Source: Escherichia phage RudolfBernhard_Bas96
Sequence record: PQ850623.1
DNA: 64,000 nucleotides
Strand: one strand, 5' to 3'
The notes under the pieces are model-generated. The model worked only from the letters and a program-made list of their open reading frames with translations, was not told where the DNA came from and ran no database searches. Below are positions 59,539 through 64,000 of the stretch, piece by piece. Positions within the stretch are counted from its first letter, which is position 1; every line of letters starts with the position of its first letter. A program made the position numbers and the translations under genes.

Positions 59539-60012
59539 TTAATCCTTACCATGATTAGAGTGGAAACCATATTCATTGTTAGCTAACTCTCTAGCTTCTA
59601 CAGCTTCGTCGAAAGTGTTGAATCTACCTAAATGCTTTAGCTTACCATTAATCTTTATACGAACTCTCCATTTACCAGCTTCATATCTTACTCCCGTTGC
59701 ACCCGACATATTATTAGAAGCTCTACTTCTATTACGATTGTTATCTTGGGAAGATACTGCCCTTAGGTTTTCTAAACGGTCATCTGTTCGTATGTGATTG
59801 ATATGGTCAACCATATAACCGTCAGGCAATTTACCGTTGTGCATTTCCCAGATTATAGTAGCTGCCTTAAGATGTCGGTATTTTACTTGGACATATACAT
59901 ATCCACTGTACGTGTCGAAACTTCCAGCAATATCCCCACTTTTAGCTCTGCCACTACTAACCTTCCAGTAGAGTTTGCCTTCACGGTAGGAGAAGAATTC
60001 ATGCCAGTCCAT
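59539..60012 (-). CDS. HNH homing endonuclease with AP2 domain
   Basis: 157 aa; HNH core VDHINHIRTDDRLENLR; AP2-like GVRYEAGKWRVRIKINGKLKHLGRFNTFDEAVEAR. Confidence 0.7.
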   Translation of the reverse strand: MDWHEFFSYREGKLYWKVSSGRAKSGDIAGSFDTYSGYVYVQVKYRHLKAATIIWEMHNGKLPDGYMVDHINHIRTDDRLENLRAVSSQDNNRNRSRASNNMSGATGVRYEAGKWRVRIKINGKLKHLGRFNTFDEAVEARELANNEYGFHSNHGKD

Positions 60013-60535: not shown

Positions 60536-60919
60536 TTAGAAAGTCAGTTTACGAGCATATTTATTCTCGTCTGCTGGGATGTCAGCAGCCTCTGCTTTCA
60601 CACGACGAAGTTGAACTTGCAGGTTAATGATACCTTCTTCACCTGGTTTCAGGTTCTGAGCATATTCGATTAACTGTTCCAGCAAATCGTTCTGTGCACA
60701 ACGCATAGCACGGAAGTCAGCATTGCTGCTATTAGTAGGCAGTGGTTCCTGAGTATCCAGTGGGATACCAGTAGGCAGAGAGATGAATTTCTCATCATCA
60801 GAGCCTTCATTAGCAATATAACCAATGTTCAGCCAGAACTGAGCTTTTGGCTTATCAGTTTTAGCAGTAGAAGTAGCAGCAGCGTTAGATTGACCGAAAG
60901 TGAATTTTTGAATAGACAT
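60536..60919 (-). CDS. Early protein (hypothetical)
   Basis: ATG at 60919 with GGAGAG RBS (track start 61018 lies too close to the promoter hairpin); 127 aa. Confidence 0.5.
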
Positions 60920-61030
60920 TTTGTACTCTCCAGATTGATAAATGTTTGATTTATGGGTTTGTCCGTCGGTGACTAAACCCAAGAAAAGACTTAGGATTTC
61001 GATAAGAAGTGGATTCATTCTTATCCTTTA

Positions 61031-61043
61031 GACGCGGAGCGTC
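61031..61043 (-). promoter_or_regulatory. Candidate vRNAP early-promoter hairpin GACGC-GGA-GCGTC
   Basis: Perfect 5-bp inverted repeat around GGA on the template strand, between a terminator hairpin and the next early gene; preceded by ATCCTTTA. Confidence 0.5.
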
Positions 61044-61102
61044 TTGGTTTTTAGAAGTAGAAGTAAAGTAGATAAATATCTACTTTTGACTATCTATCTA
61101 AT

Positions 61103-61133
61103 CTTTATAAAAGGAGACTCCGAAGAGCCTCCT
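61103..61133 (-). terminator. Putative terminator
   Basis: Stem AGGAGACTC/GAGCCTCCT (one mismatch) with CGAA loop; modest T/A run. Confidence 0.45.
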
Positions 61134-61139
61134 ATTGAT

Positions 61140-61463
61140 TTAGTCTTTAGTCAGGATGTCGATTACTTTTGAATATTCTGCGTTATAGATACGAGCGTTC
61201 TCTGAATCTTTGCAGAATTCTTCGATACTTTTCTTACGCATAGTCTCGTTCATAGCTGTTTCTTCAGCTAATTTGTTTACGAATGTATGCATTTCTAATT
61301 TAGTACGAATGGCTTGTTTCTCTGCCATAGTAGATACATATGAGTTAAGCATACCTACTGCTTTAGTAGCTGTGCTGAATGTATCTGCAACAGTAGTAGC
61401 AGCAGAGTTAACAGTACCCAGTAAAGTTCCTGCGGTCATACGTACAGTAGCGGCAGTAGTCAT
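61140..61463 (-). CDS. Early protein (hypothetical)
   Basis: 107 aa; Thr/Ala-rich N-terminus; 50 nt downstream of a candidate promoter hairpin. Confidence 0.5.
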   Translation of the reverse strand: MTTAATVRMTAGTLLGTVNSAATTVADTFSTATKAVGMLNSYVSTMAEKQAIRTKLEMHTFVNKLAEETAMNETMRKKSIEEFCKDSENARIYNAEYSKVIDILTKD

Positions 61464-61506
61464 GATGATAGCTCCAATAGTTGATGATAGGACGACATGT
61501 CCATAA

Positions 61507-61519
61507 CATGCGGAGCATG
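61507..61519 (-). promoter_or_regulatory. Candidate vRNAP early-promoter hairpin CATGC-GGA-GCATG
   Basis: Perfect 5-bp inverted repeat around GGA in a 215-bp noncoding G-rich gap; preceded by TCCATAA. Confidence 0.5.
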
Positions 61520-61678
61520 TGTAACGTGTAAGGTGGGGTAGGGTAGTGGCTACAGGGTCAACATACCGGGGGGGCTAGTTGAGTGTAAGGGTGTAGCCCC
61601 AGCCACACCACTGTAGCCATACATAGCTATCACAATTTTGACATGCAAAAATATTATAACTATCCCACTTATAAGCAG

Positions 61679-62017
61679 TTAAATAGGAGGTGAGATTCGG
61701 GTGATAATACGAGCTATGTCAGAGTAATAATCAGGATGGTTAGGGTTACCACTACTATGTCTTACGGCAGCATCTTTGATAAACACATGAGCATAATCAC
61801 CTAATAAGATGAAGGCTGACTCACCATTTTGCAAGATAACTATCTTTGCATTGCTGTTAGTAAGAATCTTATGCCCTTGTGCAAAGTCTGCTAACTCTCC
61901 TGGTTCCATTATTAGTGTGGAATCCCCATAGGACATAAGGTGGATGATTGCTTTCTCTGGTTCAGAAGAGTAGTGCAGTAAGTCAGTACCACTCATGCCT
62001 AAGAGTTTAACGTTCAT
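61679..62017 (-). CDS. Early protein, member of tandem paralog array
   Basis: 112 aa; shares hydrophobic core motif with neighbours (STLIMEPGELADFAQG). Confidence 0.45.
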   Translation of the reverse strand: MNVKLLGMSGTDLLHYSSEPEKAIIHLMSYGDSTLIMEPGELADFAQGHKILTNSNAKIVILQNGESAFILLGDYAHVFIKDAAVRHSSGNPNHPDYYSDIARIITRISPPI

Positions 62018-62056
62018 GCTTCAGTACCTGTACCAGATATGGGGATGAGTTTAGTT

Positions 62057-62341
62057 TCACCGTCTTTCCTTATAGATTGGGGTGTTATCCTCGAAGGATA
62101 GGATGTACTTATCTGTATTGAGATGCCACGGACTGAATCTATCCTGCCAGGACATAGGTGTTCCTGGTTCAAGTAGATGTACTTCTGCTTTCTTATTGTA
62201 TAAGAAAAGCAATCCCTGTAGTTCGTGCAAGGACTGTTCGTCTGGAACCAGGATAAGTACATCAGCGTCTAGGTTAGCTACTTCTTTATGGTGGGTGTAT
62301 TCATCCCAAGACAGAACTGAATAAATTTTACTGATAACCAT
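62057..62341 (-). CDS. Early protein, member of tandem paralog array
   Basis: 94 aa; DADVLILVPDEQSLHELQGLLFLYNKKAEVHLLEP aligns with 63539-63829. Confidence 0.5.
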   Translation of the reverse strand: MVISKIYSVLSWDEYTHHKEVANLDADVLILVPDEQSLHELQGLLFLYNKKAEVHLLEPGTPMSWQDRFSPWHLNTDKYILSFEDNTPIYKERR

Positions 62342-62658
62342 TAGTAGCTCTCGTCGCTAGATAAATATGAGGAAGGATAGAGGGTAATGAGTCTACCTGT
62401 AAGAGTAGTATCTACCATAGGCTCACAAGTGGAATAGATATATACCCGTGCAAACTCAGATACTTCAACCGATGTATCTATCTTAGTGAATGTAATTGGT
62501 ATGCCTAACATTAGACAAGAACCAATAAGCTCATCAGCTTCTTCACTAGGTTCATATAAGATAGTAGCACCATCCAGTTTACCACTTAAGCAATCTTGCT
62601 TAGTTACCTTACTGAGATAGCAGCTTGTACTTAGTGCAATTAATGAGTAGAAGTGCAT
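62341..62658 (-). CDS. Early protein, member of tandem paralog array
   Basis: 105 aa; GATILYEPSEEADELIGSCLMLG core. Confidence 0.45.
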   Translation of the reverse strand: MHFYSLIALSTSCYLSKVTKQDCLSGKLDGATILYEPSEEADELIGSCLMLGIPITFTKIDTSVEVSEFARVYIYSTCEPMVDTTLTGRLITLYPSSYLSSDESY

Positions 62659-62661
62659 AAC

Positions 62662-62976
62662 TTACATCCTTACATAGTAGTAACGGTACTCATCGTTCTC
62701 ATAGCGGCTACCCCATTGGTATTCATCAGATACCATCATGTACGGGATAGGGTCATTAGCGTTATAGTTGGTATAGACAGAAGGAGGAATGATACATACA
62801 ACCTTACGGTCATTACCTGCTAGGAAGAGTTGGCCCCTTACTTCATGATAATCTTCTAAGGTAGGAACCAGTATTACTTGTTGAGGGTTGCTGTTCATGA
62901 CTTCTTCTAAAGTGAAGTCGGTTGTGTACATGGACTCCCCCTTAACAAAACTGGGGACGGTCATTATGAATTTCAT
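62662..62976 (-). CDS. Early protein, member of tandem paralog array
   Basis: ATG at 62976 preceded by AGGAAGGA RBS (track start 63051 overlaps the upstream gene); QQVILVPTLEDYHEVRGQLFLAG core. Confidence 0.5.
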   Translation of the reverse strand: MKFIMTVPSFVKGESMYTTDFTLEEVMNSNPQQVILVPTLEDYHEVRGQLFLAGNDRKVVCIIPPSVYTNYNANDPIPYMMVSDEYQWGSRYENDEYRYYYVRM

Positions 62977-63337
62977 GATTAATTTTCCTTCCTTTAGGGA
63001 TAGGTCTGAAGAAAATGGAAAGTGTTTTATTAAAGAGGTTATGTTCAACAATCATTTCCCAGCCAGGTACTTTATAGAACCTAACTCCTGGGAAGAATGT
63101 TTCGAAGTCTACATACTCAGTAAGGTCGTATACAACTGGTTCAGTAAGTATACGCGTATTGATTTGTAGGTTACTTAAGAAAAATGAACCAACTATCTCA
63201 TGGGATTCTTCGCAGTCTGGTAGGAAGACTACATGTTTAGATAGGAACTTACTTACCATCTCTGGTTCCCCTAGGTAGTAGGGTTCCTGCTTACGTAGTA
63301 CTCCAGTAATATCAATATCAAAAGCGTAGATGCACAT
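62942..63337 (-). CDS. Early protein, member of tandem paralog array
   Basis: 131 aa; GGAGGT RBS; KHVVFLPDCEESHEIVGSFFLSN core. Confidence 0.5.
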   Translation of the reverse strand: MCIYAFDIDITGVLRKQEPYYLGEPEMVSKFLSKHVVFLPDCEESHEIVGSFFLSNLQINTRILTEPVVYDLTEYVDFETFFPGVRFYKVPGWEMIVEHNLFNKTLSIFFRPIPKGRKINHEIHNDRPQFC

Positions 63338-63349
63338 AATTGCATACCT

Positions 63350-63389
63350 CCAGAAAAAGAAATGGGGTAGAGCCTCTCGACCCTACCCC
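63350..63389 (-). terminator. Terminator/attenuator-like hairpin directly upstream of an early gene RBS
   Basis: Stem GGGGTAG/CTACCCC enclosing a 12-nt loop, followed on the - strand by ATTTCTTTTTCTGGAGGT (T run merging into the RBS). Confidence 0.4.
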
Positions 63390-63445
63390 TTACCGTTTTC
63401 AATCACGGGTCAGTTCATCCCCCTAGGTACTTATGTACCGTTAGA

Positions 63446-63458
63446 CCTACGGAGTAGG
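63446..63458 (-). promoter_or_regulatory. Candidate vRNAP early-promoter hairpin CCTAC-GGA-GTAGG
   Basis: Perfect 5-bp inverted repeat around GGA on the template strand, between the first two early genes in the window. Confidence 0.45.
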
Positions 63459-63538
63459 AAAGGAGCCGGGGAACCCTGACTGTAGAAGTTATTAACTCTT
63501 TACGAGTACCGCCACTGTCTACTAGGCGGTATGACTAA

Positions 63539-63829
63539 TCACATCATCACCGTCATCCGAACGCTGTCTTTGCTTCGTTTGATGGAGACACTATGAGGTA
63601 ATTTTGTGAAGAACACAAGAGCTGAAAATCGTTTTTCTAAAGAGTAAGTTTCTCTTGGTTCTAAAATCTTAATGCCTGGACGATTCTCTAACAGCATCAT
63701 CCCAGCTAATTCATGATAGGTATCTTCATCATGTGTAATGATAATATCATCCGGTAGAATACCAGCCTTGGTGTGGTCTAGCTCTTTGTATTCATCTTTA
63801 GAGTCGTGGACTCTCATATAGATTCTCAA
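63539..63829 (-). CDS. Early protein, member of tandem paralog array
   Basis: 96 aa; PDDIIITHDEDTYHELAGMMLLENRPGIKILEP aligns with 62057-62341. Confidence 0.5.
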   Translation of the reverse strand: MRIYMRVHDSKDEYKELDHTKAGILPDDIIITHDEDTYHELAGMMLLENRPGIKILEPRETYSLEKRFSALVFFTKLPHSVSIKRSKDSVRMTVMM

Positions 63830-64000
63830 GATAATACTCCTTGGGGAATAGGGTCATCGGAACATTACATACTATTTAGTATCATGAACTTTTTCTATAT
63901 CATGACTAAAGTGTAACTGTATGATATGGTTTCTACAAGGGGTATCTCACCCCAAGAAAAGAATCTTCGTTAATAGACATAACTTTGTAGAGAGATAAGT

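What the first reader, a model, noticed from the sequence alone, without database searches (positions are those of the whole stretch)
61679..63829. Tandem array of six diverged paralogous small early genes
Six consecutive leftward ORFs (63539-63829, 62942-63337, 62662-62976, 62341-62658, 62057-62341, 61679-62017) share a core of the type hhh(L/F)(V/L)P(D/T)xE(D/E)xHE(L/V)xGxhhLxxxxxxhxhhEP while flanks have diverged. Gene families expanded in a phage early region usually encode host-takeover or anti-defence proteins under diversifying selection. Two candidate promoter hairpins and an attenuator-like hairpin lie inside the array.
Basis: seen in the sequence. Interest (0 to 1): 0.65.

Follow-up and report, generated by a model that had tools for sequence, protein, structure and literature searches.

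The report
Right-end paralog gene array with RNA gate
Six neighbouring small genes of this N4-like E. coli phage are diverged copies of one uncharacterised protein family, but they lie at the late-entering right end of the genome rather than in the early region, and the first copy is followed by a strongly conserved folded RNA ending in a transcription terminator.

Summary
All six leftward ORFs (61679-63829) are real genes under purifying selection (dN/dS 0.08-0.43), and they belong to one family of ~100-aa alpha/beta proteins.

- **Paralogy:** g1, g2, g3 and g5 are linked by BLAST and profile comparison. g4 and g6 form a second subclade, joined to the first by profile-profile comparison (0 of 400 shuffles reach the score), a bridging Klebsiella phage protein and predicted structure.
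- **Family:** it includes N4 gp70 and gp71 and is found only in Schitoviridae. It has no Pfam or PDB relative.
- **Position:** The window is a Gamaleyavirus (G7C-like). The array lies between the terminase module and the right terminal repeat, which is the last DNA to enter the cell, not in the left-end early region.
- **Selection:** no gene-wide diversifying selection is seen. What varies between relatives is gene content downstream of g4.
- **Hairpins:** They are helices of a ~190-nt structured RNA in the g1-g2 spacer that evolves 3-100 times (mostly more than 10 times) slower than flanking synonymous sites. The RNA shows compensatory changes in every helix, ends in an intrinsic terminator abutting g2's ribosome-binding site, has no Rfam match, and recurs in five genera.

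Protein function remains unknown.

The parts
63830..64000 (.). Divergent control region between the gp69-like/terminase operon (beyond the window end, + strand) and g1. It is conserved across the G7C, N4 and KP8 types. The promoter class has not been identified.
   Evidence: Alignment of 11 phages shows long invariant blocks, including the hairpin GGGGTGAGATACCCC. Synteny with gp69-like and terminase genes.
63539..63829 (-). g1, 96 aa (TTG start after AAGGAG). It is the N4 gp70 ortholog (PHROG 7213), the most widely conserved member of the family, and is always followed by the RNA element.
   Evidence: 35% identity to N4 gp70, E 2e-24. tblastn finds it in Escherichia, Klebsiella, Achromobacter and Pseudomonas schitoviruses. 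dN/dS 0.08-0.32.
63354..63538 (-). Conserved structured RNA element in the g1-g2 spacer.
- P1: 63531-63507
- P1b: small hairpin after P1
- Single-stranded UAAUAACUUCUACA
- P2: GUCAG 63480-63476 paired with CUGAC 63413-63409
- P2b: CCCC/GGGG
- Junction: GGCUCCUUU 63467-63459
- P3: 63458-63446
- P4: 63439-63426
- P5: CCGU..ACGG
- Terminator at the 3' end
   Evidence: - Spacer divergence is 0.005-0.074 against flanking dS of 0.07-1.13.
- On a MAFFT alignment, 96% of cells are paired and 11 pairs show double changes, against 4.0 +/- 1.3 in shuffles (0 of 500 reach it).
- CM R1 finds the element on the same strand and at the same position in KP8-type phages, N4, JWAlpha and inbricus (E 1e-10 to 3e-5).
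- No Rfam match.
63364..63389 (-). Intrinsic terminator (11-bp stem, GAGA loop) followed by AUUUCUUUUU. It runs directly into the GGAGG Shine-Dalgarno sequence of g2.
   Evidence: Scan. Annotated as a terminator in PhAPEC5 and JWAlpha. The stem sequence is replaced by compensatory changes in L150, L067, N4, KP8 and JWAlpha.
62942..63337 (-). g2, 131 aa, N4 gp71 ortholog (PHROG 9160). Family core plus a C-terminal extension.
   Evidence: hhalign: g2-N4 gp71 92%, g2-g3 78%. dN/dS 0.15-0.27.
62662..62976 (-). g3, 104 aa (PHROG 11661), core subclade. Its start overlaps the end of g2 by 35 nt.
   Evidence: dN/dS 0.09-0.17.
62341..62658 (-). g4, 105 aa (PHROG 12099), second subclade (with g6).
   Evidence: hhalign g4-g6L 66%, E 5e-5 over 78 columns. 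Merged-profile test. dN/dS 0.16-0.41.
62057..62341 (-). g5, 94 aa (PHROG 16338), the central member that links g1, g2 and g3. Absent or replaced in several relatives.
   Evidence: AlphaFold2 model: pLDDT 90, pTM 0.80, element order beta-beta-beta-alpha-beta-beta-beta. Gene-content variation.
61679..62017 (-). g6, 112 aa (PHROG 12606), second subclade. The last gene before the terminal repeat. Duplicated (g6 plus g6L) in Mimir124 and IME11 (pSb-1 has g6L plus a 44-aa g6 fragment).
   Evidence: Model pLDDT 66, with the same order of elements as g5. Its BFVD hits overlap those of g5.
61205..61607 (.). Region equivalent to the direct terminal repeat, which marks the physical genome end. It contains vRNAP promoter P1 (61520-61506) and the 5' part of the gp1 homolog (61140-61463). 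Not part of the array; it fixes the array's position in the genome.
   Evidence: Mimir124 DTR annotation mapped through the alignment. gp1 note in IME11. P1 hairpin ACATGC-TCC-GCATGT plus TATGG, like N4 P1.

Best explanation
**Shown**
- The six ORFs are functional genes. They are old tandem duplicates of one Schitoviridae-specific family of ~100-residue alpha/beta proteins, the family of N4 gp70 and gp71. They fall into two subclades: g1/g2/g3/g5 and g4/g6.
- The array is the right-end module of a G7C-like genome. It is transcribed away from the terminase operon toward the right terminal repeat.
- The array has a fixed 'head' and a plastic 'tail'. The head is g1 followed by a ~190-nt structured RNA that ends in an intrinsic terminator touching g2's ribosome-binding site. 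The tail is g2-g4, which are conserved, plus a distal part that is duplicated, lost or replaced between close relatives.

**Inferred**
- There is no room for a promoter between the terminator and g2. Transcription of g2-g6 therefore comes from upstream of g1 and depends on read-through of that terminator. On this reading the RNA acts as a gate (attenuator or processing element) that sets the ratio of g1 to the downstream paralogs.
- This DNA enters the cell last, so the genes are probably expressed in the middle or late phase, not early.
- g2-g6 are most likely accessory proteins that each bind a different host or phage partner through the conserved acidic strand-helix edge (hhhLVPDxEDxHELxG ... 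LEP). g1, conserved across subfamilies, may have a more basic role.
- The biochemical activity is unknown.
For: **Genes are real**
- dN/dS is 0.08-0.43 in all six.

**Paralogy**
- Sequence and profile evidence.
- KP8 gp069 bridges the two subclades.

**Fold**
- The g5 model has pLDDT 90, and the g6 model has the same order of elements.
- Both models retrieve only small Schitoviridae proteins in BFVD.
- No Pfam, NCBIfam or PDB-sequence match.
- Only 23 clusters match among 1.84 billion representatives.

**Position**
-.
- The same synteny (terminase, gp69-like, then g1-like, ~250-nt spacer, family members, N4_Gp1, N4_Gp2) occurs around distant members, in KP8 and in JWAlpha and inbricus.

**Plastic tail**
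-.
- L067 keeps g1 and the RNA but has a different gene after it.

**RNA and terminator**
-.
- Many G-U pairs and much weaker antisense hits point to the sense strand.

**Left end enters first**
- PMC4496689, PMC3715699.
Against: - No expression data exist for this region in any relative I could find, so the temporal class and terminator read-through are inferences.
- The promoter upstream of g1 was not identified. The σ70 scan found fewer sites than shuffles, and the motif conserved across genera does not recur elsewhere in the window.
- Phage RNAPII may ignore the terminator, in which case the RNA would not act as a gate.
- The link of g4 and g6 to the core is moderate (hhalign probability about 40%), and the g6 model has only pLDDT 66.
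- Nothing indicates what the proteins bind. An accessory role is argued only from gene turnover and genome position.
- g1's wide conservation fits a core function equally well.
Confidence: 0.6

Rival explanations
1. One reading: the six genes are early genes transcribed from hairpin promoters by the virion RNA polymerase, and encode host-takeover or anti-defence proteins under diversifying selection.
For: - The genes are small, acidic, multi-copy and variable in copy number.
- They are co-oriented with the early genes and lie directly upstream of them in a concatemer or circular map.
- One hairpin in the g1-g2 spacer has the 5-bp stem and TCC loop of vRNAP promoters.
Against: - The array lies on the far side of the terminal repeat from the early genes, at the end that enters last (PMC4496689).
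- The look-alike hairpin's loop is not conserved even among close relatives, and it lacks the GC-loop-GC closing pairs of the three genuine promoters.
- About one such hairpin per strand is expected by chance (my estimate from stem and loop probabilities).
- dN/dS is below 0.45 in all genes.
Confidence: 0.15
2. The family has a core role tied to genome ends, packaging or replication, for example end protection or concatemer processing, rather than an accessory host-interaction role. The conserved spacer acts at the DNA level, as a packaging or origin signal.
For: - g1 and the spacer are conserved next to the terminase genes and near the terminal repeat in two subfamilies.
- The spacer is far more conserved than the neighbouring coding DNA.
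Against: - The distance from the spacer to the repeat is not conserved: a few hundred bp in N4 against ~1.8 kb here.
- The element has a multi-helix junction with many G-U pairs on one strand only, and it ends in a hairpin plus U-run. This fits RNA better than duplex DNA.
- Members downstream of g4 are freely lost or replaced, which is unlike core genes.
Confidence: 0.2
3. The shared motif is compositional or convergent: unrelated small ORFs that happen to share a hydrophobic-acidic-helix pattern.
For: - g4 and g6 give no significant pairwise BLAST hit to the other four.
- PHROGs files the six genes in six different families.
Against: - Profile-profile scores exceed all 400 column shuffles.
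- Each subclade's HMM, built without the window's own sequences, scores members of the other subclade best among the remaining ~400 ORF segments: the g4/g6 HMM ranks g1 and g5 next, and the core HMM ranks g4 next, though g6 only eleventh.
- KP8 gp069 bridges the two subclades.
- The structure models have matching secondary-structure order and overlapping structural neighbours.
Confidence: 0.03

Closest known systems
N4 gp70 and gp71 (right-end ORFs of coliphage N4; PHROGs 7213 and 9160)
   Same: - g1 is the gp70 ortholog (35% identity, E 2e-24), and g2 is the gp71 ortholog (31% identity; hhalign 92%).
- Same position after gp69/terminase and the same ~200-nt spacer with a terminator.
   Different: - N4 has only these two members plus a 42-aa remnant (gp72) that clusters with g6.
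- This phage has six members, and relatives have up to seven (in arrays of six to eight genes).
- No function or expression class is published for gp70-72 in the papers I could search.
Cluster of 29 small genes upstream of the right terminal repeat of Pseudomonas phage LUZ7 (Ceyssens et al. 2010, PMC3715699)
   Same: - Same genome position: after the gp69-like gene, rightward, ending at the right repeat.
- Small genes of unknown function that account for gene-number differences between related N4-like phages.
   Different: - LUZ7's genes are ~55-75 aa and did not appear among the sequence or structure matches to this family.
- The RNA model finds nothing in LUZ7.
N4 virion-RNA-polymerase hairpin promoters (P1, P2, P3)
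   Same: - Helix P3 of the spacer RNA in this window is a 5-bp stem with a TCC loop.
- Three genuine promoters of this kind lie elsewhere in the window, at 61520-61506, 61044-61030 and 57501-57489.
   Different: - The loop and closing pairs are not conserved.
- Relatives have loops of CTA, CCA or 4-7 nt, with a compensated stem.
- It is located at the wrong genome end.
Transcription attenuators, leader RNAs and 3'UTR-derived small RNAs that end in an intrinsic terminator
   Same: A structured RNA of ~190 nt lies between two cistrons and ends in a hairpin plus U-run immediately before the next gene's ribosome-binding site. A conserved C/U-rich single-stranded stretch (CUCCUU) resembles an anti-Shine-Dalgarno seed.
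   Different: - No Rfam family matches.
- No ligand, protein partner or alternative antiterminator fold has been identified.
- Whether it acts in cis or in trans is unknown.
Late intergenic small RNAs of LUZ7 (ONT-cappable-seq, PMC9163698)
   Same: This is precedent that N4-like phages make abundant non-coding RNAs shorter than 250 nt from an intergenic region late in infection.
   Different: - The locus differs: it lies between orf69 and orf70 in the replication module.
- No sequence or structure match to the element described here.

Membership tests
N4 gp70/gp71-type right-end small protein family (Schitoviridae) | Significant sequence or profile similarity to gp70 or gp71 | tested here: met
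   g1-gp70 E 2e-24 and g2-gp71 E 2e-7. g2 family-gp71 hhalign 92%. g3 and g5 are linked to g1 and g2 at 78-92%. g4 and g6 are linked through g6L and KP8 gp069.
N4 gp70/gp71-type right-end small protein family (Schitoviridae) | Position between the gp69-like/terminase genes and the right terminal repeat, transcribed toward the repeat | tested here: met
N4 gp70/gp71-type right-end small protein family (Schitoviridae) | Common fold | tested here: inconclusive
   The g5 model is confident (pLDDT 90), while the g6 model is moderate (pLDDT 66). Both have the same element order and overlapping BFVD neighbours. g1-g4 were not modelled, and there are no experimental structures.
vRNAP hairpin promoter (N4 P1-P3 type) | 5-7 bp stem and 3-nt loop with a central purine on the template strand | tested here: met
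   63458-63446 reads CCTAC-TCC-GTAGG, giving a template-strand loop of GGA.
vRNAP hairpin promoter (N4 P1-P3 type) | Conserved loop and GC closing pairs, as in genuine promoters, retained in relatives | tested here: not met
   Genuine promoters in N4 and in this window all read GC-[T(C/T)C]-GC. In the look-alike the closing pair is AC/GT. The loop varies among relatives (TCC, CTA, CCA, TACT, CTGCAA), and N4 has no hairpin there.
vRNAP hairpin promoter (N4 P1-P3 type) | Location in the left-end DNA that is injected first | tested here: not met
   The hairpin lies ~1.8 kb upstream of the right terminal repeat. The constraint is stated in PMC4496689.
Intrinsic (factor-independent) terminator | GC-rich hairpin followed by a U-run | tested here: met
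   11-bp stem plus AUUUCUUUUU at 63389-63354.
Intrinsic (factor-independent) terminator | Maintained by selection (compensatory changes at a conserved position) | tested here: met
   4 of 11 pairs show double changes within the G7C type. N4, KP8, JWAlpha and inbricus have entirely different stems at the same position. Annotated independently in PhAPEC5 and JWAlpha.
Intrinsic (factor-independent) terminator | Actually terminates the polymerase that transcribes this region | not testable with these tools
   Needs 3'-end mapping in infected cells.
Regulated attenuator or riboswitch-like leader | Mutually exclusive terminator and antiterminator folds, or a defined ligand or protein partner | not tested
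   I noticed only possible alternative pairings by eye (GACCC with GGGUC), and these are not conserved in L150.
Any Rfam family | Covariance-model match | tested here: not met
   No relevant match at E <= 1 over 60900-64000.
Any Pfam, NCBIfam or PDB protein family | Profile or sequence match | tested here: not met

The most novel reading that the evidence does not exclude
The g1 + RNA + terminator 'head' is a new riboregulatory module of Schitoviridae. The ~190-nt RNA has a multi-helix junction and invariant UAAUAAC and CUCCUU stretches, and is conserved in at least five genera of two subfamilies. In this reading the RNA senses a phage or host factor, possibly the g1 protein encoded just upstream. 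It then decides whether transcription reads through into a fast-turnover array of paralogous effector proteins with a fold not seen in the PDB. Alternatively, it is released as a 3'UTR small RNA that targets ribosome-binding sites.
Probability: 0.3. Interest if true: 0.7.

Novelty: new variant of a known kind. Interest (0 to 1): 0.55.

Why it matters
- **A family out of scattered ORFs.** N4-like phages are a model for phage transcription, yet their right-end genes (N4 gp70-72 and equivalents) have no assigned function or expression class. Here these 'hypothetical' ORFs, split over six PHROGs, turn out to be one family with a confidently predicted fold that has no PDB relative.
- **Wide conservation.** The module 'g1, structured RNA with terminator, paralog array, terminal repeat' is shared by phages of Escherichia, Klebsiella, Achromobacter and Pseudomonas.
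- **A testable RNA.** The RNA element is an unusually well-supported candidate for a new phage regulatory RNA. It offers a concrete handle (terminator read-through) for asking how and when this module is expressed.
- **Practical use.** G7C-like phages are used in phage therapy, so knowing which right-end genes are variable accessory genes helps genome engineering.

Tried and rejected
- **Protein libraries.** Pfam, NCBIfam and PDB-sequence searches of the six proteins or the family profile found nothing significant. The vaccinia C7 hit (E 0.055) and the RcsD_ABL hit (E 0.17) are at chance level.
- **afdb50 fold search.** The library was unavailable.
- **Large protein searches.** The three searches returned only close G7C-type relatives, because the top 120 rows are dominated by near-identical sequences.
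- **Degenerate DNA pattern for helix P1 in viral contigs.** It gave mostly chance hits. I filtered them with nhmmer.
- **Ribozyme and small-RNA readings of the spacer.** I considered hammerhead (UGAUGAG...GAAA) and C/D-box k-turn readings by eye. I dropped them because the core nucleotides are not conserved and Rfam gives no hit.
- **Shared promoter motif.** I looked for one using the conserved block TTASACTTTAG upstream of g1. It occurs less often in the window than in shuffles.
- **σ70 promoter scan of the array.** It found no enrichment over shuffles.
- **Literature.** Searches for expression or essentiality data on N4 gp70-72 or the G7C right end found nothing specific. The LUZ7 late small RNAs lie at a different locus and do not match.
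Full report
**What the window is**

The last 3 kb of the window is 85-90% identical to Gamaleyavirus (G7C-like, Schitoviridae) phages of E. coli and Shigella.
- g1 63539-63829
- g2 62942-63337
- g3 62662-62976
- g4 62341-62658
- g5 62057-62341
- g6 61679-62017

Each matches its own PHROG of unknown function at E 1e-42 to 1e-66. None matches Pfam or NCBIfam.

**Are the six ORFs paralogs?**

Four of them are, by ordinary sequence statistics.
- BLASTP gives g1-g5 36 bits, g3-g5 30 bits, g2-g3 26 bits and g2-g5 23 bits.
- Against the whole PHROG library, g1 and g3 hit g5's family (E 6e-5 and 5e-4), and g5 hits g1's family (E 3e-3).
- I built family alignments from eight relatives and three large protein searches. 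With these, hhalign gives g1-g5 92%, g3-g5 89%, g2-g3 78% and g2-g5 54%.

g4 and g6 form a second group.
- g6 matches a paralog found in relatives (g6L) at 98%.
- g4 matches g6L at 66%, E 5e-5 over 78 columns.

Several lines tie the second group to the first.
- The merged g4/g6/g6L profile aligns to the merged core profile in exactly that register, with score 26.3 and P 3e-4. No score from 400 column shuffles comes near it (mean 10.2, sd 2.0, max 19.1).
- An HMM built from relatives of g4 and g6 only, run against all 404 stop-to-stop segments of the window, ranks g1 (E 0.006) and g5 (E 0.036) immediately after g6 and g4.
- Klebsiella phage KP8 gp069 hits both groups, at 98% and 63%.

The similarity is therefore not compositional. 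The six genes are one family with two subclades.

**Structure**
- AlphaFold2 on g5, with a 57-sequence family alignment, gives pLDDT 90 and pTM 0.80. The fold is a beta-sheet packed against one helix, in the order beta-beta-beta-alpha-beta-beta-beta. The conserved LVPDExxxHELxG segment forms the third strand and the N-terminal half of the helix.
- g6 is modelled less well (pLDDT 66). It has the same order of elements plus one extra helix.
- Foldseek against predicted viral structures returns, for both models, the same set of uncharacterised 85-130-aa proteins. They come from G7C-like phages, the N4-like phage OLB145 (a gp71 homolog), Klebsiella KP8 (three proteins), Achromobacter JWAlpha-type phages (about six proteins) and Pseudomonas phage Zuri (three proteins). 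Below these matches come only weak, unrelated hits.
- A profile search of 1.84 billion representative proteins finds only 23 clusters.

The family is thus confined to Schitoviridae, is multi-copy in several genera, and has no characterised relative.

**Where the array sits**

- In PhAPEC5 and N4 these genes are the last genes of the genome (N4 gp70, gp71, gp72). They are divergent from gp69 and the terminase.
- In Mimir124 the 403-bp direct terminal repeat is annotated immediately downstream of the g6 homolog. Through the alignment it maps to window ~61205-61607.
- The ORF at 61140-61463 is the homolog of N4 gp1, annotated '12 kDa protein in genome left end'.
- Using N4's known promoters as a guide, I found the three virion-RNA-polymerase hairpin promoters of this phage on the coding strand: 61520-61506 (before gp1), 61044-61030 (before the gp2-like gene) and 57501-57489. 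All read stem-TCC-stem with GC closing pairs.

So the early region begins downstream of g6, on the other side of the physical genome end. The array is the right-end module. According to the N4 literature the left end is injected first, vRNAP promoters are constrained to it, and the remaining DNA enters only after middle transcription (PMC4496689, PMC3715699). The array is therefore very unlikely to be 'early' in the N4 sense. Its actual temporal class is not known.

**Selection and turnover**
- Pairwise dN/dS between this phage and seven relatives is 0.08-0.43 for all six genes. The genes are real and under purifying selection, and there is no gene-wide sign of diversifying selection. Site-specific tests were not possible.
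- What does vary is content. g1-g4 are present in every close G7C-type relative examined; the divergent contig L067 keeps only g1 and the spacer.
- The distal positions carry different combinations of g5, a g5-like gene, g6, a g6-like gene, an unrelated HExxH protein and another unrelated gene.
- One divergent relative (L067) keeps only g1, the spacer and the HExxH gene.
- N4 has two members plus a 42-aa remnant. KP8 has five members, and JWAlpha has g1 plus four genes of ~105-137 aa.
- LUZ7 has 29 tiny genes at the same position, already noted in the literature as being of unknown function.

**The hairpins**

The g1-g2 spacer (63338-63538) is the most conserved stretch of the locus.
- Its divergence from seven relatives is 0.005-0.074. 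Synonymous divergence in the flanking g1 and g2 is 0.07-1.13.
- Blocks of it are recognisable even in N4 and KP8.

Comparison of variants shows a set of helices maintained by compensatory changes:
- P1: ACCGCC, 11-nt loop, GGCGGU.
- P1b: a hairpin of variable length.
- A conserved single strand, UAAUAACUUCUACA.
- A long-range helix P2/P2b (GUCAG..CCCC with GGGG..CUGAC) that encloses a junction (GGCUCCUUU) and two hairpins, P3 and P4.
- P5.
- An intrinsic terminator (63389-63364, then AUUUCUUUUU) that runs straight into g2's GGAGG.

Covariation statistics support this structure.
- On a MAFFT alignment of 15 distinct G7C-type sequences, which was not fitted to the structure, 96% of cells pair. 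With slid partners the figure is 31-48%.
- In that alignment 11 of 36 pairs show changes on both sides, against 4.0 +/- 1.3 in shuffles (0 of 500 reach it).
- A covariance model built from that alignment finds a full-length match on the same strand and at the same position in KP8-type phages (E 3e-7 to 2e-5) and in N4 (E 3e-5). It also finds one in Achromobacter phage JWAlpha (E 1e-8) and Pseudomonas phage inbricus (E 1e-10), which belong to another subfamily.
- The model finds nothing else on that strand in the window (only a weak antisense hit over the terminator) and nothing in LUZ7.
- In the model-fitted three-genus alignment, 23 of 36 pairs change on both sides. That alignment leans toward the structure by construction.
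- Frequent G-U pairs and the weak antisense scores point to the sense strand.
- Rfam has no match.

- The 'promoter hairpin' at 63458-63446 is helix P3. In this phage it happens to look like a vRNAP promoter, but its loop is CTA, CCA or longer in relatives and it lacks the GC closing pairs.
- The 'attenuator-like hairpin' is the terminator, and that part of the reading stands.

**How the locus most likely works**

*Shown*
- A conserved control region lies upstream of g1.
- Then come g1, a structured RNA and a terminator.
- g2-g6 follow, tightly packed or overlapping, with no space for a promoter after the terminator.

*Inferred*
- g2-g6 are transcribed by read-through from the g1 promoter.
- The RNA sets how much read-through occurs, or is processed or released as a stable 3' fragment.
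- Its invariant CUCCUU junction resembles an anti-Shine-Dalgarno sequence. It could pair with a ribosome-binding site in cis or in trans.
- The proteins probably act by binding partners through the conserved acidic edge of the fold.
- The variable tail suggests accessory, host-specific roles. g1, conserved across subfamilies, may be more basic and is a natural candidate partner of the RNA.
- None of these functional steps has been tested.

**Comparison with what is known, and verdict**
- The closest known entities are N4 gp70 and gp71 (same family, no known function) and the LUZ7 right-end small-gene cluster (same position, no detectable homology).
- The RNA resembles leader or attenuator RNAs, or 3'UTR small RNAs, in its layout, but it belongs to no described family.
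- The finding is a real, moderately interesting locus: a new protein family definition plus a well-supported candidate regulatory RNA.
- Function remains open.

Noticed in passing
window 61520-61506, 61044-61030, 57501-57489 (- strand): Three hairpins of the N4 virion-RNA-polymerase promoter type (stem, TCC loop, stem, with GC closing pairs). They lie before the gp1 homolog, before the gp2-like 160-aa ORF, and further into the early region. The first is nearly identical in context to N4 P1.
   Followed up: partly
window 61682-61653 (- strand): A strong σ70-like promoter match (TTAACT, 18-nt spacer, TATAAT; 10 of 12 positions) at the end of g6. It lies just outside the terminal repeat and reads into it.
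   Followed up: no
window 63830-64000: The divergent intergenic region between the gp69-like gene and g1 is conserved across G7C-, N4- and KP8-type phages. It includes a hairpin, GGGGTGAGATACCCC, preceded by a T-run, and a block TTA(C/G)ACTTTAG. No promoter class could be assigned.
   Followed up: partly
L001 329-643, L004 3945-4259, L008 1958-2272, L067 683-1006, L131 3853-4185: Relatives carry, inside the same array, a ~105-aa protein with an HExxH motif (LVHELNHF), possibly a minimal metallopeptidase. It is absent from this window and unrelated to the family.
   Followed up: no
L131 3476-4355 (Klebsiella phage KP8 gp064, gp066, gp067): Three ~56-68-aa proteins in the KP8 right-end array share a pattern (GNVY ... 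INIRT ... LIGT) and look like a second small paralog family.
   Followed up: no
window 59539-60012 (- strand): A 157-aa ORF whose sequence looks, by eye, like an HNH-type endonuclease with an AP2-like DNA-binding region sits among the early genes. A similar ORF occurs at L067 2414-2908. It is likely a homing endonuclease.
   Followed up: no
L158 42699-48346 (Pseudomonas phage LUZ7 gp087-gp115): Twenty-nine genes of ~40-75 aa (most 55-75) occupy the position equivalent to this array. Many have nearly identical lengths, which suggests another independent expansion. The RNA model finds no element there.
   Followed up: partly
L002 (OY979416.1, Klebsiella phage vB_Kpl_K57alpha1.2): The deposited annotation places 'DNA primase' and 'exonuclease' pseudogene features over DNA that is 89% identical to this small-gene array. 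The record's feature table seems to be offset from its sequence.
   Followed up: no
L005 4949-5077 (N4 gp72) and L007 1097-1231: N4 gp72 (42 aa) and a 44-aa ORF of pSb-1 cluster with the g6 family. They appear to be remnants of a longer gene next to the terminal repeat.
   Followed up: no
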